Assembly: GCA_016217965.1 (NCBI GenBank)
Contig: JACRFI010000015.1
Location: forward strand, 16,366 to 80,365
DNA length: 64,000 bases
From: Candidatus Kaiserbacteria bacterium
GTDB lineage: Bacteria; Patescibacteriota; Minisyncoccia; Phycocordibacterales; UBA2100
Direction: 5' to 3'
The translations under genes were made by a program, and so were the position numbers. This document shows, in pieces, positions 745 to 63,840 of this stretch. Under the pieces are notes generated by a model that was given only the letters and a program-made list of their open reading frames with translations, was not told the origin of the DNA and ran no database searches. Every line of letters starts with the position of its first letter. Positions within the stretch are counted from its first letter, which is position 1.

Positions 745-877
745 CCGAATAACCAAATTCCAAGAGACAATAACCAAACAAGTTTCAATAACCAACTTTG
801 AAGTTTGTGATTTGAATATTGTCTGGAGCTTGTGTCTTGGTTATTGGTTATTATTACTGTCATTATGTTACACTCGA
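745..877. repeat. 'AATAACCAA x3 ... TTGGTTATT x2' hairpin element upstream of the MGMT gene
   Basis: Three direct AATAACCAA (747, 768, 786) and two inverted TTGGTTATT (837, 844); shares 15-mer ACAATAACCAAACAA with 29752..29836. Confidence 0.6.
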
Positions 878-7457: not shown

Positions 7458-7482
7458 CCACGAATTCGCGAGCCGCGAAGGC

Positions 7483-7569
7483 TTAAGTATTTTGCCGTCT
7501 TCGCAGGCCTGACGAGGCCGAGACCGAGCGCTGGCGCAGCAGCGCCAGATAGCGACGGCAAAATACTTA
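7483..7569. repeat. ~87-bp palindromic element with 16-bp perfect terminal inverted repeats (copy A)
   Basis: TAAGTATTTTGCCGTC...GACGGCAAAATACTTA termini plus internal palindrome CTGGCGCAGCAGCGCCAG; near-identical inverted copy at 37424..37508. Confidence 0.8.
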
Positions 7570-7612
7570 TGCCGAGAAAAGGCTTGCGAATTTATGCGCT
7601 ATACTACCCACA

Positions 7613-10482: not shown

Positions 10483-10596
10483 ATGCGTGTCAAATCTTCC
10501 CTTAAGAAAATGTGCCTTCATTGCCGCCACGTGAGGCGGCGCGGTAAATTGTGGGTCATTTGCAAGAATCCACGGCATAAGCAGAGGCAGGGGTAG
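10483..10596 (+). CDS. rpmJ: 50S ribosomal protein L36 (37 aa, not in ORF track)
   Basis: Hand translation [37 protein letters not shown], classic L36 with C..C..C..H zinc ribbon; sits between infA and rpsM as expected. Confidence 0.85.
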
Positions 10597-10696
10597 CTTC
10601 TAGTGCTGAGCTTCTAGCTTCTAGGAAACTGGAAACTGGACGCTCCGCAGCAGGAGCATTAATGAATCAAAGCTAGAAGCTAGTACCTAGAAGCTA
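10594..10696 (+). promoter_or_regulatory. two-helix stem-loop bridging rpmJ stop codon and rpsM start codon
   Basis: 10594-10603 TAGCTTCTAG pairs with 10687-10696 CTAGAAGCTA; 10609-10618 AGCTTCTAGC pairs with 10672-10681 GCTAGAAGCT; ~53-nt loop contains GAAACTGGAAACTGGA. Confidence 0.5.
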
Positions 10697-12118: not shown

Positions 12119-12286
12119 GGCATTTGGCTGTTTACGCGAGTAAGATGTAATAAAAATTCATGTAATTTCCTGTCCACAGATGATCCCTTGCCAAATTACT
12201 GGTAACGGGGTATATTGTTTCGCGTTTTTGACTATTCTTAATTATTCGCATTTTATTCAGTTTTTTAGCGCCTGTTCCCCCTATTT

Positions 12287-13640: not shown

Positions 13641-13994
13641 ATGTCGCAAATTGAACACACAATTGATGCGAGCGGAGAGAGGCTTGGGCGCGTTGCATCG
13701 CGTGCGGCAAAAATTCTAATGGGAAAGTCTTCTGCAGGATACACGCCGCATATTCCCGCGGACCTTACGCTTACGATTTCGAATGCATCGAAAATGCACA
13801 TCGCGCAAAAGAAGCGGTTGCAGAAGACGTACACAGAATATTCTGGGCATCCCGGAGGGTTAAAGCGCGAGTCACTGTCTCATCTCGCAGCGCGAAAGGG
13901 CCACAAAGAGGTGCTACGCCAAGCGATTGAAAGGATGCTTCCGAGAAATGCGATGCGCGCGAAACGATTGAAAAGTTTGAAGATAAGCGATTAG
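13641..13994 (+). CDS. rplM: 50S ribosomal protein L13
   Basis: L13-like ...IDASGERLGRVASRAAKILMGK...; short 117-aa form. Confidence 0.8.
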   Translation: MSQIEHTIDASGERLGRVASRAAKILMGKSSAGYTPHIPADLTLTISNASKMHIAQKKRLQKTYTEYSGHPGGLKRESLSHLAARKGHKEVLRQAIERMLPRNAMRAKRLKSLKISD

Positions 13995-14011
13995 AAGCTA
14001 TAGTCTAGAAT

Positions 14012-17119: not shown

Positions 17120-17127
17120 AGAAAAGG

Positions 17128-17238
17128 AAACCCGAGCTTCTAGAGAACATCGCGCCGCGAAGAAAGAAACGTAAAGAAAGTTCGCAGTACCTCAGAGGAT
17201 AGAAGCGTGCAGAGGGTTCGCGTTCGGTGCGAAGCTCG
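17128..17238. repeat. long-range inverted repeat downstream of dnaK (10-bp arms, ~85-nt spacer)
   Basis: CCCGAGCTTC at 17131 and GAAGCTCGGG at 17225 are reverse complements; 5' arm includes the GAGCTTCTAGAG motif. Confidence 0.5.
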
Positions 17239-17367
17239 GGATTTCCTGCTGAAATTTCATGAAGAAAACTATCCACAATCCGGCGGCGCTTGTTAAGAGT
17301 TTATCTCACGGGGTATACTGAAGACCAGATGAATTCAGTTTTAACAATGTAAAACCTAGGCATCTCT

Positions 17368-28904: not shown

Positions 28905-28905
28905 T

Positions 28906-29021
28906 CCCGTTAGAAGTCGTGAGCGCGTCTATCTATCCGCGAATTCTCTGATAGACTTTTATATATGAGCAGTAGCCGAATTTGGCGTAAACCAAGTGTC
29001 TGCGTCCGATTTCTAACGGGA
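28906..29021. repeat. long-range inverted repeat downstream of aspS (10-11-bp arms, ~95-nt spacer)
   Basis: CCCGTTAGAAG at 28907 and CTTCTAACGGG ending 29021 are reverse complements. Confidence 0.45.
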
Positions 29022-29755
29022 TGACGGCGTTCTCTTTAGAAACGAGCGGCTATACGGGCCCACTGGACGCGCTGTTGACGCTCATCGAAGACAGAAAGCT
29101 CTCGATATCGGAAGTCTCGCTTGCTGAAGTAACTGACGCGTACCTTTCGTATGTGGAAAGCCTTCCCCAGCTCCCTTTGGGCGAGACGGCTCAATTCATT
29201 CTCATTGCGTCCACGCTTCTACTCATAAAATCTCGCACCCTTCTTCCTAGCGTTGACCTAACGGAAGAGGAGACTCAAAGCATAGAAGAGCTCGAACGCC
29301 GCCTCGCACGGTATGCGCTTATAAGAAAGTGTGCAAAAGTGCTGCGCAACAAGTGGGGCAGTGCGCCGCTTCGATTTCCGAAGCGCCAACCGTCTCCCGA
29401 ATACGCGGCAGGCAGGGAGGCGTCATTCAATCCTGGGGAAACGACGCTTGCTCTACTGTTGCGTGCTGCACAATCACTCCTCAGCACTCTGCCAAAGCCG
29501 GAGAAGCTTGCAGAGGCGACAGTCGCACCGGTATTGAAACTTGAAGAAGTTATCAGCAATCTCCGCACCAGGCTTGCCTCATCGATACGCACCAAATGGA
29601 GCGAACTAACTAATACATCTGGTAAGTACGAGATGATAGTCCATTTTCTTGCAATATTGGAACTGGTTCGAAGTGGCTCTGTTAGTGCCACACAAGAGAA
29701 ACTTTTCAGTGATATCCTATTGGAAACAGAGGCCCTGGGGGCACCACGTTACTAA
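29021..29755 (+). CDS. scpA: segregation and condensation protein A (kleisin)
   Basis: N-terminal YTGPLDALLTLIEDRKL motif typical of ScpA; 244 aa. Confidence 0.7.
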   Translation: MTAFSLETSGYTGPLDALLTLIEDRKLSISEVSLAEVTDAYLSYVESLPQLPLGETAQFILIASTLLLIKSRTLLPSVDLTEEETQSIEELERRLARYALIRKCAKVLRNKWGSAPLRFPKRQPSPEYAAGREASFNPGETTLALLLRAAQSLLSTLPKPEKLAEATVAPVLKLEEVISNLRTRLASSIRTKWSELTNTSGKYEMIVHFLAILELVRSGSVSATQEKLFSDILLETEALGAPRY

Positions 29756-29836
29756 TTACCAAGATACAAGATACAATAACCAAACAAAATACAAAGAATT
29801 CCTCGTTTGTGTGCTGTTTCTTGGTGATTGGTTATT
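29752..29836. repeat. 'AATAACCAA...TTGGTTATT' hairpin element immediately 5' of scpB
   Basis: Shares ACAATAACCAAACAA and TTGTGT...CTTGGT(T/G)ATTGGTTATTA with element at 745..877; arms are reverse complements; ends at scpB ATG. Confidence 0.6.
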
Positions 29837-31355: not shown

Positions 31356-32432
31356 ATGGCAATGATGCTCTCAGATACAGTGCGTATTTTAGTGCCAGCC
31401 GCTGTAACATTCGTTGTCGGGATGGCGCTGACGCCTATCCTCACTCACTACTTGTACGCGTATAAGGTTTGGAAGAAAACTCCGGGCAAAAATGGATTGG
31501 ATGGCAAAAAGGCTGAGGAATTCAACCGAATCCACGAATTGAATGAAGTCCGCGCGCCTCGAATGGGTGGCATCGTCGTGTGGGGAAGTGTACTTATCAC
31601 GATACTTGGGTTCGCCGCCGCCGCAGTTTTTTTTGACAACCCCATCATAGATAGTCTCGCGTACCTTTCACGCAGCCAAACATGGGTGCCACTTGCGGCG
31701 CTCATTATTGGAGCTGCTGCGGGATTTATTGATGATCTTCTCGTAGTAAAGCCGGGTGGAGAGGGGTTGCAGCTTTCAATCAGGCTTTCCGTCGTTGTCG
31801 CGCTTTCTCTTATTATTGGCACATGGTTCTTTACGAAGCTTGATGTCACGGCTATCAATGTGCCTTTTAGCTCTCCGATTGAACTTGGCTGGCTTATCGT
31901 TCCGTTCTTTGTCGCACTTTCACTGGGACTGTATGCATCCGGTGTCATTGATGGCATAGATGGGCTATCGGGAGGTGTATTCATGTCGGTATTCGCTGGC
32001 TACGCCGTCATTGCTTTCGCGCAGAACCAAATCGACATAGCAGCCTTTACTGCCTCCATTGTCGGCGGCCTTCTTGCCTTCTTGTGGTTCAATATTCCGC
32101 CGGCACGGTTCTATATGAGTGATACAGGCACGATGGCGCTAACATTGTGTCTTGCCGTTATCGTGTTTATGACCGACAGCCTTGGGGAAGGCGTCGGAGT
32201 ATTTGCGCTGCCGGTTATTGGAGCACTTCTTGTTGTGACTGTCGCGTCGAATGTCATTCAAGTTGTATCAAAACGCTTTTTTGGAAGGAAGGTATTCCGC
32301 GTTGCGCCGCTCCACCATCATTTTGAGGCCATAGGCTGGCCCGCGTACAAAGTTGCGATGAGGTATTGGATCCTTTCGATAGTGTTTGCTTTTTTAGGCG
32401 TTATCCTGGCATTGTCGGCGATTGTGCCATGA
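31356..32432 (+). CDS. mraY: phospho-N-acetylmuramoyl-pentapeptide transferase
   Basis: 10 TM helices, DDLLVV and VAPLHHHFE MraY motifs. Confidence 0.9.
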   Translation: MAMMLSDTVRILVPAAVTFVVGMALTPILTHYLYAYKVWKKTPGKNGLDGKKAEEFNRIHELNEVRAPRMGGIVVWGSVLITILGFAAAAVFFDNPIIDSLAYLSRSQTWVPLAALIIGAAAGFIDDLLVVKPGGEGLQLSIRLSVVVALSLIIGTWFFTKLDVTAINVPFSSPIELGWLIVPFFVALSLGLYASGVIDGIDGLSGGVFMSVFAGYAVIAFAQNQIDIAAFTASIVGGLLAFLWFNIPPARFYMSDTGTMALTLCLAVIVFMTDSLGEGVGVFALPVIGALLVVTVASNVIQVVSKRFFGRKVFRVAPLHHHFEAIGWPAYKVAMRYWILSIVFAFLGVILALSAIVP

Positions 32433-32517
32433 TTCGCTTCATCGCCGCAGGGTATTTTGACGGAGGAATGGCTCATACCGTCAAAATACCCTGCGGCGAC
32501 TCCGCTATTATTGGAAC

Positions 32518-33615
32518 ATGAAATCCGCAAAAATAGATAAACCGCTAGCAATCACGCTCGCCATATTGGTTGTGGGCGGCATGGGGATTTTTACGTCCGC
32601 TGCATTCGGTCTCCTTGCTCGGGGTGCTTCGCACATATCATCCGTAGTTTTCAATCATCTTGTGCTCGGTGTCGGCATGGGACTCGCCGCTTTTTCCGTC
32701 GCGTATTTCATTGAATATCGGACATGGAGATGGCTGGCACCGTACCTTTTTGGGCTTGCACTTATCGCGACCGCGCTCGTCTTTGTCCCGCACATCGGTT
32801 TTATGCACGCGGGTGGAAGGCGATGGATAGACATTTTCGGGTTCACGTTTCAGCCATCGGAGGCGTTAAAGATAGCGACCGTTCTTATGATGGCGTCATA
32901 CTTTTCTTCGCTAAAGGAAAAAGTCGGATCATGGCATGGGCTTGCAGCTTTTCTTGGCATCATCGCGCTTCCATCCCTTCTTCTCGTTGCGCAACCAGAT
33001 ATTGGCACGCTCGGCGTTATATGCATTTCCGCTCTCGCTGTATATGCGGCGGCTGGTGCACGTCTCCGGGATATTGCCATTATCGCGGTGGTTGGACTAA
33101 TGCTGCTCGCATCTCTCGCATATCTGCGCCCGTACATGCTTGATAGGGTAACGACATTCATTAATCCGGCGCAAAATCCGCATAGTGAAGGCTATCAGAT
33201 AAAGCAGTCACTTATCGCCGTAGGATCAGGCGGACTTTTGGGCCGCGGATTCGGGCAGGGCGTGCAAAAATTCACCTATCTGCCTGAGCCGATGGGGGAT
33301 TCGATATTCGCCGTAGCTGCAGAAGAGCTTGGTTTTTTTGGGGGACTCACGATAATAGGGCTTTTTCTGATTCTCGCGCTACGGGGCATGAATGTTGCAA
33401 CGCATTCACCGGACCTTTTTGGAGCGCTAGCTGCCGTAGGGATTTCAACTTATTTTGTCGGTGAGGCATTCATAAATATCGCCTCTATGCTTGGGATAGC
33501 GCCTCTCACGGGCATTCCGCTGACGTTCATAAGCCAGGGCGGAAGCGCGATGCTCATCTCACTTGGGACCGCCGGGATACTTCTCAATATTTCGAGAAAT
33601 AGGGCAAAAAAGTAG
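32518..33615 (+). CDS. ftsW: SEDS-family peptidoglycan glycosyltransferase FtsW/RodA
   Basis: SEDS consensus segments; position between mraY and murG favours FtsW. Confidence 0.8.
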   Translation: MKSAKIDKPLAITLAILVVGGMGIFTSAAFGLLARGASHISSVVFNHLVLGVGMGLAAFSVAYFIEYRTWRWLAPYLFGLALIATALVFVPHIGFMHAGGRRWIDIFGFTFQPSEALKIATVLMMASYFSSLKEKVGSWHGLAAFLGIIALPSLLLVAQPDIGTLGVICISALAVYAAAGARLRDIAIIAVVGLMLLASLAYLRPYMLDRVTTFINPAQNPHSEGYQIKQSLIAVGSGGLLGRGFGQGVQKFTYLPEPMGDSIFAVAAEELGFFGGLTIIGLFLILALRGMNVATHSPDLFGALAAVGISTYFVGEAFINIASMLGIAPLTGIPLTFISQGGSAMLISLGTAGILLNISRNRAKK

Positions 33616-37397: not shown

Positions 37398-37423
37398 ATC
37401 GCGCGAAACTCCCTCTCGGCATA

Positions 37424-37508
37424 AATTTTTTGCCGTCGCTATCTGGCGCTGCTGCGCCAGCGCTCGGTCTCGGCCCCGTCGGGCCTGCGAAGACGGCAAA
37501 AAACTTAC
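37424..37508. repeat. palindromic TIR element copy B (inverted relative to copy A)
   Basis: Reverse complement matches 7483..7569 with ~2 core mismatches over ~75 bp; immediately downstream of the M23 peptidase gene. Confidence 0.8.
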
Positions 37509-38206
37509 GCCTTCGAAGAGTTTCGTTTTGTCTGAGGCTGATTGAGCCATTCAGTAATTTTTATTGCTTTCAATTCCACAATAGACGCTTTTCGCAAATG
37601 TCTTATGGCCGCAGCTGGCGCGATGTCGTAATACTTTGTCTTCGACAATCTTTCCATAAGCCAATCGAGCGATTGCTCGGTCGTTATCCATTTTTCAGGA
37701 GGGAATCGAGAAAGATCGAATGGCGCTGAGTAGCCGCGGAGGGATTTTCTTCCGTCCCACATGTAATATTCGTGGAAATAGGACATCGCGAGTTCGCGAG
37801 GCGTTTTGTAAACCGCGTCACGATATCTGAGGACCGCGTGATTTGTTTTGCTGATTGCTCCCCATAGGCCGCTTTCTTTAAATAGCGCGACTGCGTGATC
37901 TTCGTCATCATACGCTGTCGCGAAATCCATAAGCAGCGGTTTTTTTCCGTGGTACGCCAGCGCTGCGGCAGCAAATACAGCGCCTTCAAAACAATGCGCC
38001 TTCCCTACTTTTAACACCAAAAGAGGGGAGTGGTTGGTTTCTCCGCCTACCTCAAAATTGATCGGTACAGTGTCCAGAAAATTCTGGATCTTTCGTGGGG
38101 AAGAGAGGCGCGAAAATATTTTATGCATGGCCGGAGGCAACGAGGCGCGTACAGAATCCGCGTACATAGGACAATTATAGCGATTAAAAAAGAGACCGAT
38201 CTGCAA
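37505..38206 (-). CDS. hypothetical protein
   Basis: 233-aa ORF, no confident motif. Confidence 0.4.
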   Translation of the reverse strand: MQIGLFFNRYNCPMYADSVRASLPPAMHKIFSRLSSPRKIQNFLDTVPINFEVGGETNHSPLLVLKVGKAHCFEGAVFAAAALAYHGKKPLLMDFATAYDDEDHAVALFKESGLWGAISKTNHAVLRYRDAVYKTPRELAMSYFHEYYMWDGRKSLRGYSAPFDLSRFPPEKWITTEQSLDWLMERLSKTKYYDIAPAAAIRHLRKASIVELKAIKITEWLNQPQTKRNSSKA

Positions 38207-38268: not shown

Positions 38269-38318
38269 CCACATTGCACTTCCCTCACCTCTGTCAAATT
38301 GTAGTAGGCTAGAAGCGT

Positions 38319-41928: not shown

Positions 41929-42291
41929 CTACTTCAGTCCTTTGCAGTTCCCCGCTGGCTTATAACCCGCCGCGCGCGCCGCAGCTTCGTCCTTGAACCA
42001 GATCTTATTTGCCTCTTTCATTGTTGCAGCTCCGGGGCACCAGGGATAGTGATACGCGTTTCCCGATCGTGATGCCACGACTTGACCTCCGATCCTTATC
42101 ATCTGCGTGGCTTCGGTAACCATTGCGGCTTGCGTCACAGTAACTATCGGCTGCACTGCTTCTTCTGCGGAAAGCCTGCCGAGCCCAAACGACGCCAACC
42201 CGACGAACACAACGATAATTGGAATACCCCACTCCCCTACCCCCCTGTCAAGCACCCCCTTGATTCTGCCAATGCTCTCTTGTATACTCAT
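41929..42291 (-). CDS. hypothetical membrane-anchored protein with C-terminal H/C-containing domain
   Basis: TM near N-terminus; C-terminal YHYPWCPG...GNC segment. Confidence 0.4.
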   Translation of the reverse strand: MSIQESIGRIKGVLDRGVGEWGIPIIVVFVGLASFGLGRLSAEEAVQPIVTVTQAAMVTEATQMIRIGGQVVASRSGNAYHYPWCPGAATMKEANKIWFKDEAAARAAGYKPAGNCKGLK

Positions 42292-42319
42292 GCAGCTTCA
42301 ATAATAGCTCGGATTTTGG

Positions 42320-42365
42320 CTTTATCTAGAAGCTAAAACTAGTAGCTAGAAGCTATTCAAAAAAT
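42320..42365. promoter_or_regulatory. tandem CTAGAAGCTA motifs upstream of rpmA
   Basis: CTAGAAGCTA at 42326 and AGTAGCTAGAAGCTA at 42341, ending 10 nt before the rpmA ATG. Confidence 0.5.
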
Positions 42366-42638
42366 ATGGCATCAACAAAAGCCGGTGGAACAGCGAAAAA
42401 CCTGAATGACTCAAATCCGAAGTATCTCGGCGTTAAACGATCGGACGGCTCAAAAGTTAATATCGGTGAAATAATCGTCCGCCAGCGCGGCACGAAGATT
42501 CTCCCGGGCGCGAATATTGGGCTTGGCAAAGACCACACGCTCTTCGCGCGCATCCAAGGTGTAGTCAAATTTGCATCAACTCGAAAAAGGAATTTTGACG
42601 GAAAGACGTTCGTCCGCCGCATCGTTTCGGTCGTTTAG
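42366..42638 (+). CDS. rpmA: 50S ribosomal protein L27
   Basis: [28 protein letters not shown]... canonical L27. Confidence 0.85.
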
Positions 42639-44391: not shown

Positions 44392-46110
44392 ATGGTAGAA
44401 TTGCGAGAATCATTCATGGGCCTTTTTGCAGAATTAAGCACGATGATTGTGGTCGCTGCCCTGATGGCAACCATCATGCGGCTCCTCAAGCAGCCCTTAA
44501 TCATCGGGCACATTCTTACCGGTCTCATCGTGGGGCCGTTCGTTCTTGATGTTGTCCGCTCTACTGAAACACTTGCGCTTCTCGGGGAAGTTGGCGTAGC
44601 GATACTCCTCTTTACGGTTGGGCTTCATCTTTCGCCCGCTATTGTCCGCCAATTCGGCAGAGTCTCCATCATTACCGCAATTGGGCAGGTGTTTGTCGCA
44701 TCTGTCGCGGGCTATGCGATTGGCATTTGGTTCGGCTTTTCACCGCTTGCGGCGTTTTATATTTCCGTATCGCTCGCGTTCTCAAGCACCATCATAGTCC
44801 TTAAATTTATCTCCGACAAAGGAGACTTGGAGGTCCTGTATGCGAAGATCGCGATAGGATTTCTCCTGGTCCAAGACCTCATTGCGGTACTTCTTCTCAT
44901 CGCTATTCCTATCTTCTCTGCGACCGATACATCGATCTCGCGCGTACTGTACCTTCTTGCCGCAGCCGCGGGGCTGGTACTGTTCGTCTATCTTGCCTCG
45001 AGACTTTTGGTATCAAGGACTTCTTCATTCCTTTCGGAATCCCAGGAATTTCTCTTCCTTTTTTCTATCACGTGGGGTATTGGTGTTGCGGCACTATTTC
45101 AAAGATTCGGGTTCTCATTGGAAAGCGGAGCACTGATAGCAGGCATCGCCCTATCCACCCTTCCGTCTCGGCTTGAGATAAGCGCCCGTCTCACGCCGCT
45201 TCGCGATTTCTTTATCATCATCTTTTTTATATACCTCGGCTCCCAACTGCATCTTGCAGATATCGTCGATCTTTTGCCGCTCGCGTTCCTACTCTCTACC
45301 TTTGTTCTCATAAGCAACCCACTCATCGTGATGGCTCTCCTTGGGTACCTTGGCTACAAGAAGAAAACGGGCCTCCAGACGGGGCTCACCGTGGCTCAGA
45401 TAAGCGAATTTTCGTTGATACTCGTGGCACTTGGCGCTCAGCTTGGGCACGTAGACAACCGTGTCCTCTCGCTCGTAACGCTGGTCGGTATCATTACGAT
45501 ATTTGGCTCCACGTATCTTGTGCAATACTCCGGTGCCATTTATAGAATACTCTCTCCGTATTTGAATATATTTGAACGTGCGCACATCAGCGAACCGCGT
45601 CGGCTGAAGAACTCGGCGGAAATGATTCTTTTTGGGTGCAATCGCATTGGATATGATTTTCTGGACGCGCTGAAAAAGTTGGACCGCTCGCTCTTGGTCG
45701 TGGACTACGACCCTGATGCTGTTGCTGATATGGAGAAAAAAGGCATCGAGAGCGAGTTCGGCGATGCAGGTGATATTTCTTTTCTGGAGTCGCTCGATTT
45801 CTCGAAGGCGCAGTTGGTCGTGTCCACTATTCCCGATCCAGAGACAAACGCGCTCATTCATCGCGTGGTCGGTGCGCAGAACCCTGAGGCAGTGGTGATG
45901 GTTGTCGCCCACAAAATACACGAAGCCCTTTCTCACTATGGCGAGGGAGTTGATTACGTGATCCTCCCCCACTTCCTCGGAGCGAAGCACGCTGCGGAAT
46001 TAGTGCTCAAATTTAGAGACAACAAAAAGAAGTACGAGGAATTGCGCGAGGAGCATATAGAACATCTTCAATTGCGTGTTTCTATCGGGCATGAGCATCC
46101 GCATGCATAG
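44392..46110 (+). CDS. monovalent cation:proton antiporter-2 (Kef-type) with C-terminal RCK/TrkA-N domain
   Basis: 12-13 TM helices then Rossmann segment ILFGCNRIGYDFLDAL...VVDYD. Confidence 0.75.
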   Translation: MVELRESFMGLFAELSTMIVVAALMATIMRLLKQPLIIGHILTGLIVGPFVLDVVRSTETLALLGEVGVAILLFTVGLHLSPAIVRQFGRVSIITAIGQVFVASVAGYAIGIWFGFSPLAAFYISVSLAFSSTIIVLKFISDKGDLEVLYAKIAIGFLLVQDLIAVLLLIAIPIFSATDTSISRVLYLLAAAAGLVLFVYLASRLLVSRTSSFLSESQEFLFLFSITWGIGVAALFQRFGFSLESGALIAGIALSTLPSRLEISARLTPLRDFFIIIFFIYLGSQLHLADIVDLLPLAFLLSTFVLISNPLIVMALLGYLGYKKKTGLQTGLTVAQISEFSLILVALGAQLGHVDNRVLSLVTLVGIITIFGSTYLVQYSGAIYRILSPYLNIFERAHISEPRRLKNSAEMILFGCNRIGYDFLDALKKLDRSLLVVDYDPDAVADMEKKGIESEFGDAGDISFLESLDFSKAQLVVSTIPDPETNALIHRVVGAQNPEAVVMVVAHKIHEALSHYGEGVDYVILPHFLGAKHAAELVLKFRDNKKKYEELREEHIEHLQLRVSIGHEHPHA

Positions 46111-46148
46111 CTTGTAGGTTGTAGCTCGTAGCTGATAGGATATGGCGC

Positions 46149-47692: not shown

Positions 47693-50605
47693 AATGACGA
47701 GGTTTACGATTCGTCCCTTCACGTAAATCACTTTTAGTACCTGCCTACCCTCTAGCCATTTTGCCCCAGCTTCGATCGCTTTCGTTTTCGCACTCTCTTC
47801 ACTCTCTTCAGGAGAAATAGATATTTGAGTGCGAGTCTTGCCATTGATTTGAACAGCAACTGATACCGTGTCAGCCACTAGTTTCCCTGCTTTAAATGCT
47901 GGCCATTTTTCAAGATGAATTGATTTCTTGTGGCCGAGCTCGGCCCATAGTTCGTCCGCGATATGTGGCGCGAAAGGCGATAAAAGCCGAAGTACTATTT
48001 CGAATTGGGCCTTTGAAATTCCGGCGCGCTCGGCTTCGTTCAGGAACGACATCATCTGTGCTATTGCGGTATTGAATTTCAAAGCCGGAATGTCTTCTGA
48101 GACTTTCTTGATCGTCTTGTGAAGAGAGATTTCGATCTCTTCGCCTCCTTTTCCTATCTTTTCGCGTAGTCGCCACACGCGCTCTAAAAAGCGCCGGACT
48201 CCTACAACACCATCCGGGTTCCATGGATACGTCGAGACCTCGTTGTACGGACCCACGAACGCGAGGTACATGCGCACCGTATCAGCGCCAAGCTGTGCAA
48301 CTACAGAGTCCGGGTCGATGACATTTCCTCTCGATTTCGACATCTTCTGGCCATCAGGCCCCAGAATGAGCGAACGGTTCATGCGCCGCGTGTACGGTTC
48401 AGGATCCATTGCCAGCTTGAGGTCGAAAAGTGCTTTCTGCCAAAACCGCGAATACAGGACGTGCATTGTGGTGTGTTCGGCGCCGCCCGAGTATAGATTG
48501 ATAGGCATCCACGCTTTTTGCTTTTTTGGTTCTGAGAACAGTTTCTTATTTTTCGGATCAATGTAGCGGAGGAAATACCAAGAAGAATCGACGAAGGTGT
48601 CGAGTGTATCTGTCTCGCGTTCTGCATGCCCTTTGCATTTCGGACACTTCACATTCACCCACTTGCGTACCTTTGCAAGTGGCGAGCGGCCGCTTCCATC
48701 CGGCAGGTAGTCTTTGACCTCCGGCAACTTCACGGGAAGATCTTTATCTGGCACTGCAACTTGGCCGCAAGTTTTGCAGTGGATTATCGGAATGGGAACT
48801 CCCCAGTACCTCTGGCGGGAAACTATCCAGTCACGCAGTTTGTACGTCTTCTTCTGCGTGCCGAACTCTGTAGTCATTTTTGATCGCGCCTCTTTGCTGT
48901 CTATTCCGGAGAAGTTCGCCGAATTCACAAGCCTTCCCTCTCCTGTATATGTACCTGTCTCAATTTTTCCTGATGAAATAACGTCACGGATCGGCAAATT
49001 AAACTTCTTTGCAAATTCGAAATCACGTTCATCGTGAGCAGGTACCGCCATGATGGCGCCAGTGCCGTAGTGCGCCAGCACATAATCGGCGACGTATATT
49101 GGTATTTTCTCGCCCGTTGCAGGATTTATCGCCTCGACTCCTCCCAATCTGACCCCGGTCTTTTCTTTCTGTTCAGCCATCCTCTCTAATTCTGTCTTCT
49201 TCGCCGCCTGATCAACGTACGCTTGCACTTCTGCGTTGTTTTGCAGAACTGTTTTATGGCTGAGTGCGAGCGTTACCCATTGATGCTCGGGTGCAAGCAC
49301 AAGATACGTGGCACCATAGAGCGTATCAGCCCGCGTCGTAAATACACGAATTGTAGGACGAATCCACATAAGAAAATCAGGCTCTCTGTCGGCAGTAAAG
49401 TGCTCTTGGATCGCGTTCGTCTCAACTAGTTGCGCGTCTATAGTTTTAGCGAGCTCTTGTAAATAGGGAGCACGCGCTTTTTCCTGAAGATCGGAAAGAA
49501 CCAAACGGGAGTCTGTGTTCTGCTTGATTTTCTGCACATCGAGCTTCCAATTGAAATCTTTCCAAAACGGCCGTCGAATAGCCGTAGGAAAATTTGGGTC
49601 TACTGCTGGTGCTATGACAACAAGTCGTGCAATTTTGCGCTTCAATTTTTCCGCAACCTTCATCGCGACAAGTCCGCCAAGGCTATGCCCAACAACAATC
49701 GTATTTTCATCGTAGGTTGTAGCTGATAGCGCCGTTGCAACTTGTTCCGATTCTTTTGGGGTATCAGTGTTGGGCAACGCGGGAATGACCACTTCATGCC
49801 CCAATTCTTCTAACTTCTTTTTGACCCACTGCCAACGTGGTCGATTCGGATTACTTTTATAGCCGTGCAAAAGCACAAACTTGTATTTCTTTCCAAGATC
49901 AAGACCAAAATCAATCTCGGCGCCTTCGCTGCGACCTATCCAATTGCGTTGGGATTCTTTTATTTGCTCTGGCCAGTCCAGTTCTTTCAGGTCATCGACA
50001 AGCCGGTCAGCATATTTTGTGATCCTCAGATTCCACTGCAGCATCTGTTTCTGGATCACCTCCGTCTTACAGCGCTCGCAGCGCCCATCCACAACCTGCT
50101 CGTTCGCAAGCACAGTTTTGCACGACGGGCACCAGTTCACTGCCGTTTCCTTCCGATATGCCAGTCCATTCTTGAAGAATTGGAGAAACTGCCACTGAGT
50201 CCATTTGTAATATTCGGGATCACACGTGATGACTTCCCGAGACCAATCGAAGGATGCTCCCATGGACGCCATCTGTTTTTTCATGTAGGCGATATTGCCA
50301 TACGTCCACTTTCTGGGGTTCAGTTTGTTTTTTATCGCGGCATTCTCTGCCGGAAGCCCAAATGCATCGAAGCCGATCGGATACAACACATTTTTTCCTT
50401 GCATCCGCAAATGGCGCGTCAAAATGTCAGGCACCGAGAATGCGTACCAGTGGCCAACGTGGAGATTTCCCGAAGGGTATGGGAATTCTGTAAGAAGGTA
50501 GTAATTTTTCTTTCCTTTTACCGTATCTGCAGTCTTGTAGAGCTTCGCTTTCGCCCATTTTTGTTGCCATTTCTTTTCTATTTTGCGATGGTCATACTTT
50601 CGCAT
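47678..50605 (-). CDS. leuS: leucine--tRNA ligase with an inserted alpha/beta-hydrolase (RBBP9/YdeN-like serine hydrolase) domain
   Basis: HVGH and KMSKS class-I motifs, CP1 editing domain (TTRADTLYGATY...), anticodon-binding C-terminus; residues ~234-420 form an extra GHSLGG hydrolase domain; 975 aa. Confidence 0.85.
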   Translation of the reverse strand: MRKYDHRKIEKKWQQKWAKAKLYKTADTVKGKKNYYLLTEFPYPSGNLHVGHWYAFSVPDILTRHLRMQGKNVLYPIGFDAFGLPAENAAIKNKLNPRKWTYGNIAYMKKQMASMGASFDWSREVITCDPEYYKWTQWQFLQFFKNGLAYRKETAVNWCPSCKTVLANEQVVDGRCERCKTEVIQKQMLQWNLRITKYADRLVDDLKELDWPEQIKESQRNWIGRSEGAEIDFGLDLGKKYKFVLLHGYKSNPNRPRWQWVKKKLEELGHEVVIPALPNTDTPKESEQVATALSATTYDENTIVVGHSLGGLVAMKVAEKLKRKIARLVVIAPAVDPNFPTAIRRPFWKDFNWKLDVQKIKQNTDSRLVLSDLQEKARAPYLQELAKTIDAQLVETNAIQEHFTADREPDFLMWIRPTIRVFTTRADTLYGATYLVLAPEHQWVTLALSHKTVLQNNAEVQAYVDQAAKKTELERMAEQKEKTGVRLGGVEAINPATGEKIPIYVADYVLAHYGTGAIMAVPAHDERDFEFAKKFNLPIRDVISSGKIETGTYTGEGRLVNSANFSGIDSKEARSKMTTEFGTQKKTYKLRDWIVSRQRYWGVPIPIIHCKTCGQVAVPDKDLPVKLPEVKDYLPDGSGRSPLAKVRKWVNVKCPKCKGHAERETDTLDTFVDSSWYFLRYIDPKNKKLFSEPKKQKAWMPINLYSGGAEHTTMHVLYSRFWQKALFDLKLAMDPEPYTRRMNRSLILGPDGQKMSKSRGNVIDPDSVVAQLGADTVRMYLAFVGPYNEVSTYPWNPDGVVGVRRFLERVWRLREKIGKGGEEIEISLHKTIKKVSEDIPALKFNTAIAQMMSFLNEAERAGISKAQFEIVLRLLSPFAPHIADELWAELGHKKSIHLEKWPAFKAGKLVADTVSVAVQINGKTRTQISISPEESEESAKTKAIEAGAKWLEGRQVLKVIYVKGRIVNLVIAQAL

Positions 50606-55008: not shown

Positions 55009-56265
55009 GTGAACGCGATGAAAGGAACGGTTTTGATAATTGGAGCGGGAGGGGTGGGACACGTGACGGCGCATAAGTGTGCGAGAAATAAAAACGTGTT
55101 TAAGAAAATTCATCTCGCTAGCCGAACAATCGGTAAGCCGAACGCGATAAAAAAGGATGTAAAAAAGCGCTGGGGCGTGAATATATCGACCCACGTCGTT
55201 GATGCGGACAAAGCAAGAGATGTCGCAGCACTCATCCGCAAGACGCAGCCGGAGGTAGTTATCAACGTCGCACTTCCCTACCAAGACCTAGCCATCATGG
55301 ACGCGTGTCTTGCAACGAAAGTCCATTATATCGATACCGCGAACTATGAGCCAAAAGATGAGGCGCATTTCGAATACAGCTGGCAGTGGGCATACCAAAA
55401 ACGCTATAAGGATGCGGGTATCATGGCGGTCCTCGGCGCAGGCTTCGACCCGGGAGTTACGAACGCCTACATCGCGTATCTCGCAAAGAAATATTTCGAC
55501 AAGATAAAATACGTAGATATCCTTGATGCGAATGCAGGAAGCCACGGCAAGTCATTTGCGACGAATTTCAATCCTGAAATAAATATCCGCGAGGTCACGC
55601 AGGAAGTGAAGCACTGGAACAAGGGCAAGTGGGTCAAAACGCCGCCCATCATGGACCCTAAGAGCGTACATTTTAAATTCAACTATCCTATCGCAGGCCC
55701 TTGGGAAAGTTACATGCTATATCACGAGGAAATGGAATCGCTCGTCAAGCACTTCCCCTCTGTCGAGCGGATGCGCTTCTGGATGACGTTCGGTGAGAAT
55801 TACCTTACGCATCTTCGAGTAATGGAAAGTATCGGCATTTCTCGCATCGACCCAGTTATGCATGATGGAAAGAAAATAATCCCGATTCAATTCTTGAAAT
55901 CACTTCTTCCCGACCCTGCATCTCTCGCGACTGGCTACAGCGGAAAAGCGGTCATTGGATGCATCGTGACTGGCGTTCCAAAAGGCTCGAAGCTTGAAGC
56001 TAGAAGCCAGAAGCTAATTACGAAGTACATCTATAACGTCACCGACCATGCAAAATGCTTCAAAGAGCTGGGTTCACAAGGAATTTCGTATACAGCCGGC
56101 GTTCCGCCGGTGATTGCTGCCATGATGGTCATGAAAGGCATCTGGAAAGGCGCGGGTGTATTCAATGTCGAACAGCTCGATCCCGAACCATTCCTTAGTA
56201 CCCTCGCTAAGAACGGCTTGCCTTTCAAGGTCATCAACTACAAACCGCTTCCAGCAAAGATTTAA
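55009..56265 (+). CDS. carboxy(nor)spermidine dehydrogenase (saccharopine-dehydrogenase family)
   Basis: N-terminal IIGAGGVGHV NAD(P)-binding loop, ~415-aa SDH-like architecture, adjacency to NspC-like gene. Confidence 0.65.
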   Translation: MNAMKGTVLIIGAGGVGHVTAHKCARNKNVFKKIHLASRTIGKPNAIKKDVKKRWGVNISTHVVDADKARDVAALIRKTQPEVVINVALPYQDLAIMDACLATKVHYIDTANYEPKDEAHFEYSWQWAYQKRYKDAGIMAVLGAGFDPGVTNAYIAYLAKKYFDKIKYVDILDANAGSHGKSFATNFNPEINIREVTQEVKHWNKGKWVKTPPIMDPKSVHFKFNYPIAGPWESYMLYHEEMESLVKHFPSVERMRFWMTFGENYLTHLRVMESIGISRIDPVMHDGKKIIPIQFLKSLLPDPASLATGYSGKAVIGCIVTGVPKGSKLEARSQKLITKYIYNVTDHAKCFKELGSQGISYTAGVPPVIAAMMVMKGIWKGAGVFNVEQLDPEPFLSTLAKNGLPFKVINYKPLPAKI

Positions 56266-63405: not shown

Positions 63406-63840
63406 CTAGAACATCCAGATGGCGATCGTCGCCGCGGCAAACCAGCTGAAGACAGATACTGCTCCGCTCACCATGAGCGACAGCTTTTCGTGCCCCGTAA
63501 GTGCCGCAAACGGTTTCGTGAGTGCCAAGTTCATCAAGCGGCCGATGAGTATCGCATTCACCACCAATATCCCGACGAACAGCAGCTTCACGTCGAACCA
63601 CAGGTTCGTGAGCAGGAAAAGCCGCATCGGGTAGAACAAGTAGGCTCCGCTTACGATGAGCGCAAGAAGGCCAAGCCAGATGAGCGCAAGAAGGCCAAGC
63701 CAGATGAGCGCGTGGTACGTGAGAAGCGTCTTTTTTTCGAGTGTCGTTTTCTTCCCTCGAAGCCAAGCGAACGCATCTTTATCAGCGATCGCAGTCACAC
63801 CCAGAACAAACCCAAATGACAGAATATGAAGTACTAGCAT
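63406..63840 (-). CDS. hypothetical membrane protein containing an in-frame 24-nt tandem duplication
   Basis: 4 TM helices; duplicated LIWLGLLA segment encoded by the repeat at 63657..63712. Confidence 0.4.
   Translation of the reverse strand: MLVLHILSFGFVLGVTAIADKDAFAWLRGKKTTLEKKTLLTYHALIWLGLLALIWLGLLALIVSGAYLFYPMRLFLLTNLWFDVKLLFVGILVVNAILIGRLMNLALTKPFAALTGHEKLSLMVSGAVSVFSWFAAATIAIWMF
63657..63712. repeat. 24-nt perfect tandem repeat (2 full copies plus partial) inside a CDS
   Basis: TGAGCGCAAGAAGGCCAAGCCAGA x2 then TGAGCGCG. Confidence 0.8.

What the first reader, a model, noticed from the sequence alone, without database searches (positions are those of the whole stretch)
13990..14011. 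Recurrent TAGAAGCTA/TAGCTTCTAG motif family sitting on stop codons and just upstream of start codons
Beyond the rpmJ-rpsM hairpin, the motif is seen at several other sites.
- At 13991-14000, TTAGAAGCTA contains the rplM TAG stop and lies 12 nt before the rpsI ATG.
- At 42326 and 42346 there are two copies just before rpmA.
- At 38304, CTAGAAGC lies 7 nt before the recombinase ATG.
- At 46108, the kef stop sits inside TAGCTTGTAGgttgTAGCTCGTAGCTGATAGG, just before cysS.
- At 17134, GAGCTTCTAGAG lies after dnaK.
- At 55997-56016 there is one coding copy inside the carboxyspermidine dehydrogenase gene.
That is at least 8 intergenic occurrences in 64 kb, often with the TAG serving as a stop codon. 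Shine-Dalgarno sequences are essentially absent before these genes. The motif could be a genome-specific translation, re-initiation or transcription signal, or a miniature repeat family.
Basis: seen in the sequence. Interest (0 to 1): 0.5.

Follow-up and report, generated by a model that had tools for sequence, protein, structure and literature searches.

The report
Heptamer-repeat hairpin elements between genes
The recurring TAGAAGCTA motif is the 7-base unit of a small repeated DNA element that sits in the tiny gaps between genes of an ultra-small (CPR, Kaiserbacteria-like) bacterium, often as a self-folding hairpin running exactly from one gene's stop codon to the next gene's start codon; it is a repeat family, not a new ribosome-binding signal.

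Summary
The motif is real and non-random: 7 exact TAGAAGCTA copies against 0.35 expected. It is the unit of period-7 tandem arrays (CTAGAAG / CTTCTAG).

In the rpmJ-rpsM spacer, two inverted arrays form a 103-nt hairpin (-51 kcal/mol, z -5.1). It begins on the rpmJ UAG and ends on the A of the rpsM AUG. The other sites are single arms or degenerate arrays before rpsI, rpmA and cysS. One further array lies just outside the window, and there is one in-frame 8-codon insertion in a coding gene.

Eighty related Kaiserbacteria loci show the same architecture with different units in the same spacers. Copies are pasted between spacers of one genome, close relatives differ by presence or absence, and there is no sense-strand RNA signature.

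The unpaired bases left outside the hairpins (median 10.5 nt) match the full length of empty spacers (8 nt).

The same 16-mer arrays and hairpins also abound in unrelated high-GC contigs; the one tested is a diderm.

Best reading: a foldback, slippage-prone, probably mobile repeat family. It is tolerated because folding keeps stop and start close. An alternative Shine-Dalgarno reading is disfavoured. This is a new variant of a known kind, of moderate interest.

The parts
10594..10624 (+). 5' arm of the foldback element. It is 4.4 units of TAGCTTC, and its first TAG (10594-10596) is the stop codon of rpmJ.
10625..10669 (+). Centre of the foldback. It contains a second heptamer, GGAAACT x2.4 (10624-10640), and a small internal stem, GCTCC...GGAGC (10642-10657).
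   Evidence: The centre is homologous in L002 and L035.
10670..10696 (+). 3' arm, 3.9 units of AAGCTAG. Its last base is the A of the rpsM ATG (10696).
   Evidence: The whole hairpin folds at -51 kcal/mol with z = -5.1.
13991..14011 (+). Solo degenerate array TTAGAAGC-TATAGTC-TAGAAT with no partner arm. It contains the rplM (L13) stop TAG and ends directly at the rpsI (S9) ATG. This is the site of the finding.
   Evidence: It does not fold (z = -0.74).
42292..42355 (+). 5' region of rpmA (L27). AGCTTC at 42294-42299 is followed by an array of 4.4 CTAGAAG units at 42326-42355, 10 nt before the ATG at 42366. The region folds only weakly.
   Evidence: (z = -2.2).
46108..46139 (+). Variant array TAGCTTG-TAGGTTG-TAGCTCG-TAGCTGA-TAGG. 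Its first TAG is the stop of the Kef-like gene, and it ends 9 nt before the cysS ATG. It has no partner arm.
   Evidence: (z = +1.0).
55985..56016 (+). In-frame coding copy, 4.6 units of GCTAGAA, inside the carboxyspermidine dehydrogenase gene. It encodes an 8-residue insertion (KLEARSQK) that is absent from solved homologues.
38309..38316 (+). Single unit CTAGAAGC, 2 nt before the ATG of a tyrosine recombinase gene. Its membership in the family is uncertain because a single unit is at chance level.
17126..17246 (+). Hairpin after dnaK with arms GGAAACCCGAGCTTC and GAAGCTCGGGATTTCC. It contains a single GCTTCTAG unit, so its membership is uncertain.
   Evidence: (z = -2.2).
49713..49729 (+). 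TAGGTTGTAGCTGATAG, which resembles the 46115 array, lying inside a minus-strand 975-aa gene. It is a possible coding copy and was not followed up.

Best explanation
**What it is**
TAGAAGCTA / TAGCTTCTAG is the repeating unit (CTAGAAG on one strand, CTTCTAG on the other) of a dispersed family of short tandem heptanucleotide arrays.

- In its complete form, two inverted arrays of about 4 units flank a centre of about 45 nt. The whole element folds on itself.
- In the rpmJ-rpsM spacer this hairpin fills the entire gap, from the UAG stop to the AUG start.
- The other sites are half-elements, decayed arrays, or in-frame insertions.

**How it arises**
The elements arise and spread at the DNA level. 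Replication slippage makes and resizes the heptamer arrays, and whole or half elements are copied between intergenic spacers.

Such foldback cassettes have proliferated and turn over quickly in Kaiserbacteria. They are built from different units in different genomes.

**Why they sit on stop and start codons**
In these compact genomes the ordinary gap between cistrons is only about 8 nt. Any insertion into such a gap therefore touches both codons.

**Why they are tolerated (inferred)**
- Because the insert base-pairs with itself, the unpaired distance from stop to start stays the same as in an empty spacer. Termination-coupled initiation of the downstream gene can therefore survive in a genome that hardly uses Shine-Dalgarno sequences.
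- A ribosome terminating at the 5' base of the stem would also melt the part of the 3' arm that lies just before the AUG.

**Shown versus inferred**
- Shown: the repeat anatomy, the fold, the multi-copy and patchy distribution, and the geometry.
- Inferred: the copying mechanism and the effect on translation.
For: **Anatomy**
- Enrichment and period-7 arrays.
- The hairpin runs from stop to start at -51 kcal/mol, z = -5.1, with 0 of 200 shuffles folding as well.

**Spread within the source genome**
- A further array lies 7 kb outside the window in the same genome (L235 5248-5278). Its first 24 nt are identical to the 3' arm at 10673-10696.
- The coding copy is an 8-residue insertion relative to the solved structures 8deb and 4ina.

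**Relatives, general pattern**
- Period 7 is the commonest short tandem period: 214 of 853 arrays in 1.44 Mb.
- 45 of the 85 arrays with at least 2.9 copies lie in 31 kb of r-protein-cluster spacers.
- The rpmJ-rpsM spacer is 2-30 nt in most of 75 loci. In about 15 loci it is an 80-190 nt hairpin built from other units: ATTTTCA, CGAAATC, GTATCTC, TAGCCAC, or ATGTT with period 9.

**Relatives, copying and turnover**
- The same family occupies several spacers of one genome. L040 has it in 6 of 9 spacers, and two of those copies are near-identical including the loop. L025, L035 and L006 also have repeated copies. L014 has two near-identical 200-nt copies.
- The close relatives L043 and L049 differ at 4 of 8 spacers, either by presence/absence or by holding a different element.
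- The three genomes sharing the TAGCTTC hairpin fall in three separate clades.
- 57 of 485 ingroup spacers have strong hairpins, against 1 of 134 outgroup spacers.

**Geometry and strand**
- Bases outside the outermost helix have a median of 10.5 nt (IQR 4-20.5). Empty spacers are 8 nt long in full (IQR 4-17). Mann-Whitney p = 0.24.
- There is no sense-strand stability bias: 27 hairpins favour sense and 33 antisense, with 207 versus 250 G-U pairs. This fits a DNA-level palindrome.
- SD-like tetramers lie before only 10 of 67 genes.
Against: - No target-site duplication or transposase partner was identified. Mobility is therefore inferred from the distribution only.
- In the source genome only arms, not whole hairpins, are seen duplicated, and only 71 kb of that genome was available.
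- In several families the 3' end abuts the ATG with 0 nt in every copy: CACTATCCCT-ATG in L040, CTAAC-ATG, CTAACGGG-ATG. The 5' end often supplies the stop codon, and TAG stops make up 36% of hairpin spacers against 21% of empty ones (p = 0.019). This is tidier than random insertion predicts and may point to a targeted mechanism or to functional constraint.
- Solo arrays lie mostly in the GAAGCTA orientation before starts. Three of five array-preceded genes are r-protein genes. Both hint at function.
- No expression data are available.
Confidence: 0.6

Rival explanations
1. The element is a functional cis-acting RNA. The stop-to-start hairpin would be selected to control intercistronic expression. 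It could make translation of rpsM strictly dependent on translation of rpmJ, let ribosomes re-initiate across the stem (shunt-like), or act as an RNase III or stability site. Under this reading, the repeat nature is secondary.
For: - Helix ends coincide with the stop and start codons in many independent families.
- The unpaired distance is preserved.
- The genome is SD-poor.
- Arrays are 2-3 times denser per nt in co-directional spacers than in convergent or divergent ones.
Against: - There is no sense-strand bias in stability or in G-U pairs.
- Most relatives, including the closest one (L001), do without the element at the same spacers.
- Element identity turns over between close relatives.
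- The solo arrays in this window do not fold.
- No Rfam family matches, even at E <= 1.
- The geometry is equally predicted by simple insertion into 8-nt spacers.
Confidence: 0.2
2. The (CUAGAAG)n arrays are binding sites for a sequence-specific single-strand RNA- or DNA-binding protein. The model would be HutP- or TRAP-like recognition of UAG triplets every 7 nt, or a cold-shock or S1-type protein. Binding would regulate translation initiation of r-protein and other genes.
For: - UAG-N4-UAG-N4-UAG occurs 8 times against 0.12 expected. From my own knowledge, this is the spacing recognised by HutP.
- Arrays end 0-14 nt before the starts of rpsM, rpsI, rpmA, cysS and one more ORF.
- MacGregor 2015 proposed the same idea for TAACTGA repeats (PMC4679880).
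Against: - The same architecture is built from units without UAG in sister genomes.
- Stop or UAG content of units is not enriched: 21 of 45 against 22 expected for stops, and 9 against 5.5 for TAG.
- Array-bearing genes are not conserved between genomes that share the unit. L002 and L035 have it only at rpsM.
- Arrays occur in both orientations and inside a coding gene.
- No candidate protein was examined.
Confidence: 0.1
3. The motif is an alternative ribosome-binding site that pairs with an unusual 3' tail of this organism's 16S rRNA.
For: - SD sequences are rare here.
- The motif lies upstream of some starts.
- From my own knowledge, UAGAAG would pair with a Firmicute-type ...CUUUCUA-3' tail. 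The tail of this organism is unknown.
Against: - Only about 5 of 68 genes carry the motif.
- Spacing to the ATG is 2, 3, 13, 13 and 14 nt.
- Relatives with about 80-88% identical RpoA lack it at orthologous sites or have unrelated units.
- Outside the arrays, CTAG near starts is at random density.
- The motif also occurs as the reverse complement on stop codons, and in an unrelated diderm bacterium.
Confidence: 0.03
4. The motif is a transcription signal: a promoter element, an operator for a DNA-binding regulator, or a terminator.
For: - The rpmA array lies in a divergent promoter region. A sigma-70-like site (TTGATT-17-TATACT, 42260-42288) would place the array in the 5' UTR.
- A 9-of-12 promoter-like match overlaps the rplM-rpsI array.
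Against: - Promoter-like matches in the r-protein region are at the chance rate: 3 found against 2.8 expected.
- No U-tract terminator lies at the hairpin.
- A 7-bp period does not keep sites on one face of the DNA helix.
- Most copies are internal to operons.
Confidence: 0.05

Closest known systems
TAACTGA heptamer direct repeats of marine Beggiatoaceae, cyanobacteria and Bacteroidetes (MacGregor 2015, PMC4679880)
   Same: - Tandem 7-nt units with 2-6 copies.
- Mostly intergenic, within a few nt upstream of start codons.
- Shine-Dalgarno sequences are rare in those spacers.
- Some copies lie inside r-protein operons.
- The same unit is found in phylogenetically distant lineages.
   Different: - The unit sequence differs.
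- There, 169 direct sets were found against 1 indirect set. Here the arrays commonly come as inverted pairs that form stop-to-start hairpins.
- Here many different units share the same architecture within one bacterial family.
Cyanobacterial STRR heptanucleotide repeats and long simple sequence repeats (Mazel 1990, own knowledge; Mrazek 2007 as summarised in PMC4679880)
   Same: - Heptanucleotide tandem repeats are the dominant class of short repeats.
- They are intergenic.
- They are thought to arise by polymerase slippage.
   Different: - The host lineage and unit sequences differ.
- Arrays here are short (3-5 units).
- They are organised as foldback pairs that fill intercistronic spacers.
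REP / BIME / REPIN elements (Bertels and Rainey 2011, PMC3116915; found, content from own knowledge)
   Same: - Genome-specific short extragenic repeats.
- They occur as inverted doublets that fold into long hairpins.
- They are multi-copy and lie inside operons.
- They evolve within genomes.
   Different: - A REP unit is itself a 20-40 nt imperfect palindrome with a conserved 5' tetranucleotide, and it is linked to a RAYT transposase.
- Here the arms are tandem heptamers.
- No RAYT was looked for.
Bacterial MITEs such as Neisseria Correia elements (own knowledge)
   Same: - About 100-150 nt long, with terminal inverted repeats.
- Inserted close to genes and co-transcribed.
- Presence/absence polymorphism between relatives.
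   Different: - No target-site duplication or parent insertion sequence was found here.
- The arms are built of tandem sub-repeats, more like eukaryotic foldback elements.
- The units differ between genomes.
Geobacter metallireducens multicopy elements of four or five tandem heptanucleotides (PMC2700814)
   Same: - Dispersed arrays of 4-5 tandem heptamers.
- Found both between and within genes.
- Function unknown.
   Different: - The units are GC-rich.
- From the passages read, they are not described as stop-to-start hairpins.
HutP-binding antiterminator RNA, (UAG-N4) x3 (own knowledge)
   Same: UAG triplets spaced exactly 7 nt apart on the mRNA.
   Different: - No hut operon, terminator or HutP protein is in evidence.
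- Sister families use units that lack UAG.

Membership tests
TAACTGA-type heptamer direct repeats (MacGregor 2015) | Tandem direct repeats of one 7-nt unit, 2-6 copies per set | tested here: met
   TRF reports period 7 with 3.7-4.6 copies at five window loci.
TAACTGA-type heptamer direct repeats (MacGregor 2015) | The unit is TAACTGA | tested here: not met
   The unit here is CTAGAAG / CTTCTAG.
TAACTGA-type heptamer direct repeats (MacGregor 2015) | Most sets lie within a few nt upstream of a start codon, in spacers without SD | tested here: met
   Arrays end 0-14 nt before the ATGs of rpsM, rpsI, rpmA, cysS and an ORF in L235. SD-like tetramers lie before only 10 of 67 genes.
TAACTGA-type heptamer direct repeats (MacGregor 2015) | Almost exclusively direct, not inverted, sets | tested here: not met
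   Inverted pairs that form hairpins are common here and in relatives.
REP / REPIN | Inverted doublet that folds into a long hairpin, extragenic and multi-copy | tested here: met
REP / REPIN | Each unit is a 20-40 nt imperfect palindrome with a conserved 5' tetranucleotide | tested here: not met
   The arms are tandem 7-nt units. The only internal palindrome is CTAG.
REP / REPIN | Cognate RAYT (Y1 transposase) gene in the genome | not tested
   Only 71 kb of the genome was available, and only 10 window proteins were scanned.
MITE | Terminal inverted repeats on a 50-300 nt non-coding element | tested here: met
   Arms of 27 nt are 81% complementary, and the element is 103 nt long.
MITE | Presence/absence polymorphism at orthologous sites, and near-identical copies at different sites | tested here: met
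   In the source genome there is a 24-nt identical arm at a second locus.
MITE | Target-site duplication | tested here: inconclusive
   Flanks are TA-rich, but no consistent duplication was seen across copies.
MITE | Related autonomous insertion sequence or transposase | not tested
   No search was made.
Shine-Dalgarno-type ribosome-binding site | Complementarity to the 3' tail of the organism's 16S rRNA | not testable with these tools
   No rRNA is present in the window or in any locus held at that point, L001-L232.
Shine-Dalgarno-type ribosome-binding site | Present before many genes, at a fixed 5-10 nt spacing, and conserved among close relatives | tested here: not met
   About 5 of 68 genes carry it. 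Spacing is 2-14 nt. Orthologous spacers lack it.
Intrinsic terminator | GC-rich stem followed by a U-tract | tested here: not met
   No terminator-like site overlaps the arrays.
HutP/TRAP-type NAG-repeat RNA | At least three UAG triplets with fixed short spacers | tested here: met
   8 matches against 0.12 expected.
HutP/TRAP-type NAG-repeat RNA | Cognate binding protein and regulated terminator or start site | not tested
   No protein search was made. Sister families lack UAG.
Curated RNA families (Rfam 15, including r-protein leaders) | Covariance-model match | tested here: not met
   0 hits at gathering thresholds and 0 at E <= 1 over the whole window.

The most novel reading that the evidence does not exclude
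Kaiserbacteria, and perhaps other Shine-Dalgarno-poor bacteria, may use interchangeable self-folding cassettes as functional stop-to-start bridges.

- A terminating ribosome would re-initiate across a stem of about 100 nt. It could do so by shunting, or by unmasking the start when it melts the base of the stem.
- The heptamer arrays would be read by a trans-acting factor.
- Swapping cassettes would then re-tune coupling inside the ribosomal-protein operons.

The same TAGC-type heptamer hairpins in an unrelated diderm soil bacterium would then point to a widespread, undescribed intercistronic control element.
Probability: 0.12. Interest if true: 0.75.

Novelty: new variant of a known kind. Interest (0 to 1): 0.45.

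Why it matters
CPR bacteria are regarded as extremely streamlined, yet their most conserved operon turns out to be a playground for fast-turning-over foldback repeats.

- In the secY-infA-rpmJ-rpsM...rpsI cluster, 12% of spacers in 25 of 63 genomes carry strong hairpins.
- This matters for annotation. These spacers are not leaders, small RNAs or ribosome-binding sites.
- It matters for assembly and binning, because repeats break contigs.
- It offers a natural experiment on how translation of internal cistrons works without Shine-Dalgarno sequences. Insertions appear to be allowed when they fold away and leave the stop-to-start distance unchanged.

Finding the same heptamer hairpins in an unrelated diderm soil bacterium and in viral contigs echoes the unexplained cross-phylum distribution of TAACTGA repeats. 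It may help explain why 7-nt units dominate bacterial simple repeats.

Tried and rejected
1. **Three-frame stop insulator.** TAG every 7 nt closes all frames, but stop-containing units are not enriched among 45 sense-oriented arrays: 21 observed against 22.1 expected.
2. **RNA-level selection.** Sense and antisense folding energies and G-U counts show no sense bias.
3. **General CTAG(A) signal before starts.** CTAGA is in 9 of 67 upstream regions against 0.68 expected from the whole-window background. That background is coding-dominated. Outside the arrays, CTAG density near starts is about random, at 1 per 211 nt.
4. **Known RNA families, tRNAs, terminators and promoters.** Nothing was found at the arrays.
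5. **Strain-level variation in unit number.** The only other assemblies holding these genes (Logan SRR12113407; L233-L236) are 100% identical where aligned to the window (L233, L234). They gave 7.2 kb of extra sequence but no variants.
6. **16S rRNA tail.** No rRNA is present in the window or in loci L001-L232.
7. **Target-site duplications.** None was consistent across copies.
8. **Literature.** No paper in the library holds the sequence, and none links MITEs with Patescibacteria.
9. **Integron attC-like reading** of the CCCGTTAGAAG...CTTCTAACGGG family. I considered this from memory and dropped it. The flanking genes are core genes, and the core-site consensus is not matched.
Full report

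Yes.
- The exact 9-mer TAGAAGCTA occurs 7 times on the two strands of the 64-kb window. Dinucleotide-preserving shuffles expect 0.35.
- The looser period-7 pattern TAG-N4-TAG-N4-TAG occurs 8 times against 0.12 expected.
- Tandem Repeats Finder shows that the motif is not a free-standing word. It is the unit of short period-7 arrays at 10594-10624, 10670-10696, 42326-42355, 46108-46133 (variant TAGCTTG) and 55985-56016.
- CTAG is otherwise depleted in the window: 90 copies, where about 250 would be expected for equal base frequencies.
- Two listed sites are weaker than stated. The unit before the recombinase is at 38309-38316, 2 nt from the ATG, and is a single unit. The site at 17134 is a single unit inside one arm of a different hairpin.
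- Shine-Dalgarno-like tetramers precede only 10 of 67 starts.

**2. Anatomy in the window**

The rpmJ-rpsM spacer (10594-10696) is a single foldback.
- A 5' arm of 4.4 TAGCTTC units has as its first TAG the rpmJ stop codon.
- A 45-nt centre contains another heptamer (GGAAACT x2.4) and a small stem.
- A 3' arm of 3.9 AAGCTAG units has as its last base the A of the rpsM ATG.
- As RNA it folds at -51 kcal/mol (z = -5.1), and none of 200 shuffles does as well.

The site of the finding, 13991-14011, is a solo degenerate array (TTAGAAGC-TATAGTC-TAGAAT). It carries the rplM stop, runs up to the rpsI ATG, has no partner arm and does not fold (z = -0.74).

The rpmA array (42326-42355) and the Kef/cysS array (46108-46139) are likewise single arms or weakly paired (z = -2.2 and +1.0).

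The copy inside the carboxyspermidine dehydrogenase gene is in frame. It corresponds to an 8-residue insertion (KLEARSQK) that is absent from solved homologues 8deb and 4ina.

**3. Source and extra sequence**

- RpoA places the window in Candidatus Kaiserbacteria (Parcubacteria/Paceibacterota, CPR). The best public genome is 88% identical at the protein level.
- Logan contigs of run SRR12113407 carry window genes; the two aligned to the window (L233, L234) are 100% identical.
- One of them extends 7.2 kb beyond the window start. It holds one more array (L235 5248-5278) 10 nt before the ATG of a 144-aa ORF.
- The first 24 nt of that array are identical to the 3' arm at 10673-10696. Arms are therefore copied within this genome.

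**4. Relatives**

I fetched 80 loci around rpoA.

*Orthologous spacers*
- The orthologous rpmJ-rpsM spacer is 2-30 nt in most of 75 loci.
- L002 and L035 carry the same TAGCTTC hairpin with a homologous centre.
- About a dozen others carry 80-190 nt hairpins of the same architecture built from other units: ATTTTCA, CGAAATC, GTATCTC/AATACAA, TAGCCAC, TCCGAAT, or ATGTT with period 9.
- The rplM-rpsI spacer behaves the same way. L052 has TAGCTTCGAGCTGCAAGCTTCTAG there.

*How common they are*
- Over 1.44 Mb, period 7 is the commonest short tandem period, with 214 of 853 arrays.
- 45 of the 85 arrays with at least 2.9 copies lie within 31 kb of r-protein-cluster spacers.
- Of 166 long spacers (60-260 nt) in that cluster, 61 fold with z < -3.
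- Excluding the rpsD-rpoA spacer, such hairpins occupy 57 of 485 spacers in the ingroup (25 of 63 loci), but only 1 of 134 in more distant Paceibacterota.

*Copying and turnover*
- Families are multi-copy. L040 has one element of about 130 nt in 6 of 9 spacers, and two of those copies are nearly identical including the loop.
- L025, L035 and L006 hold two copies each. L014 holds two near-identical 200-nt copies.
- Turnover is fast. The close relatives L043 and L049 differ at 4 of 8 spacers, either by presence/absence or by holding a different element.
- The three genomes with the TAGCTTC hairpin fall in three separate clades of a concatenated-protein tree. The window's sister, L001, lacks it.

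**5. Outside the CPR**

- Most are soil or peat contigs of 56-64% GC. There the unit (TAGCTNC)n is again intergenic, often paired with an inverted (GNAGCTA)n array, and flanked directly by stop codons or by the start of a gene.
- One such contig encodes BamA, so that organism is a diderm bacterium and not a CPR member.
- No paper in the library contains the sequence.

**6. Tests of functional readings**

*(a) Alternative Shine-Dalgarno: disfavoured.*
- Only about 5 of 68 genes carry the motif, and spacing to the ATG is 2-14 nt.
- The motif is not conserved at orthologous sites.
- CTAG density near starts is random outside the arrays.
- The 16S tail itself could not be examined.

*(b) Three-frame stop barrier: not general*.

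*(c) Selected sense-strand RNA structure: no signature.* Sense is more stable in 27 hairpins and antisense in 33, with 207 versus 250 G-U pairs.

*(d) Promoter, terminator or known RNA: nothing*.

*(e) Geometry.*
- In 58 hairpin spacers, the bases left outside the outermost helix have a median of 10.5 nt (IQR 4-20.5).
- That is indistinguishable from the full length of 470 hairpin-free spacers, median 8 nt (IQR 4-17), p = 0.24.
- This is what simple insertion of a self-folding element into an ordinary spacer predicts. It also means that folding restores the ordinary stop-to-start distance.
- Two observations are tidier than random insertion predicts. TAG stops are commoner with hairpins (36% against 21%, p = 0.019). 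Several families abut the ATG with 0 nt in every copy.

**7. Best explanation**

The motif is the unit of a foldback, slippage-prone and probably mobile repeat family.
- It is one of many such families that have spread through the intercistronic spacers of Kaiserbacteria.
- Its position on stop and start codons follows from the tiny size of those spacers.
- I infer that the elements are tolerated because pairing of the arms keeps stop and start effectively adjacent, so termination-coupled initiation survives in an SD-poor genome. A ribosome halted at the stop would also melt the stretch of 3' arm that lies before the AUG.
- The anatomy, fold, distribution, turnover and geometry are shown.
- The copying mechanism and any effect on translation are inferred. 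No target-site duplication or transposase was found.

**8. Comparison with known systems**

The closest described phenomenon is the TAACTGA heptamer repeats of Beggiatoaceae, cyanobacteria and Bacteroidetes.
- Those also lie just upstream of starts, in SD-less spacers, partly within r-protein operons, and across unrelated phyla.
- However, they are almost always direct rather than inverted.

Also close are:
- cyanobacterial STRR repeats and long simple sequence repeats;
- REP/REPIN doublets;
- MITEs such as Correia elements;
- the heptamer elements of Geobacter metallireducens.

The present case fails at least one defining feature of each family. The unit sequence differs, REP units have an internal palindrome that is absent here, and no target-site duplication or transposase was shown. 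I therefore file it as a new variant of the known kind 'small intergenic repeat element', not as a member of any named family.

**9. Verdict**

- The 'miniature repeat family' reading is supported, and the 'genome-specific signal' reading is not.
- Interest is moderate. The class is familiar, but three things were not expected and are testable: its proliferation inside the core ribosomal-protein operon of streamlined CPR genomes, arms built of heptamers, and the same heptamer hairpins in an unrelated diderm bacterium and in other high-GC contigs.

Noticed in passing
window 745-852 and 29751-29832: A second foldback family occurs in the same genome, built from AATAACC / GGTTATT-type units. Both copies fold with z = -5.4. 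One lies between a PD-(D/E)XK nuclease gene and an MGMT-like ORF. The other fills the scpA-scpB spacer and ends at GGTTATT-ATG.
   Followed up: partly
window 28905-29020: A 116-nt hairpin, CCCGTTAGAAG...TTTCTAACGGG, fills the spacer up to the scpA ATG. The same family (CCCGTTAGA...TCTAACGGG-ATG/TTG) sits in the secY-infA and infA-rpmJ spacers of L003, L006, L012, L027 and L073.
   Followed up: partly
window 7480-7573 and 37404-37525: Two GC-rich hairpins (GCCGTC...GACGGC), flanked by A- and T-tracts, lie at gene ends. By eye they look like reverse-complement copies of one element; this was not aligned. They look like a repeated bidirectional terminator.
   Followed up: no
L040 7751-12050 (also L025, L047): One element of about 130 nt, with TAGCCAC / GTGGCTA arms, occupies 6 of 9 spacers of the r-protein cluster. 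Five of the six copies end CACTATCC(C/T)(T)-ATG with 0 nt before the start; the rpsM-rpsK copy ends CACTATTCAAAACC-ATG. The infA-rpmJ and rpmJ-rpsM copies are nearly identical.
   Followed up: yes
L014, L016, L018, L022, L035, L043, L049, L052, L062 (r-protein spacers): A larger composite family of 120-230 nt has the form ...GAGCGAAGCGAATTACA..TTAACCCAGC[stem]GCTGGGTGTAAG..CTCGTTAAG..CTAAC-ATG. L046 has a 29-nt version that seems to lack the inner stem.
   Followed up: no
L081-L232 (metagenome and IMG/VR hits): (TAGCTNC)n / (GNAGCTA)n hairpins are abundant in contigs of 56-64% GC from soil and peat and in viral contigs, with several per 10 kb in some. L088 encodes BamA, so that host is a diderm and not CPR. 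Variant units CCAG/CTGG alternate with CTAG. The taxon was not identified.
   Followed up: partly
window 12119-12286 and the rpsD-rpoA spacer of all loci: The rpsD-rpoA spacer is long in nearly all relatives (median 70 nt). It carries a promoter-like site, TTGCCA-17-TATATT at 12188-12216, with TGTTATAAT / GGTATAAT in relatives. This suggests an internal promoter before rpoA.
   Followed up: no
window 42260-42366: rpmA (L27) stands alone without rplU. It is divergent from an Ada-like zinc-binding ORF, and a sigma-70-like site (TTGATT-17-TATACT) overlaps the start of that ORF.
   Followed up: no
window 63655-63711: A perfect 24-nt tandem repeat (GATGAGCGCAAGAAGGCCAAGCCA x2.4) lies near the window end, probably in coding sequence.
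   Followed up: no
window 32423-32518: A 41-nt-arm inverted repeat (CGCCGCAGGGTATTTTGACGG / CCGTCAAAATACCCTGCGGCG) lies between two co-directional genes. It is terminator-like but has no clear U-tract.
   Followed up: no
whole window: No tRNA gene and no Rfam match (even at E <= 1) was found in 64 kb. Gene junctions are typically TAATATG- or TAAnnATG-type with no Shine-Dalgarno sequence.
   Followed up: partly
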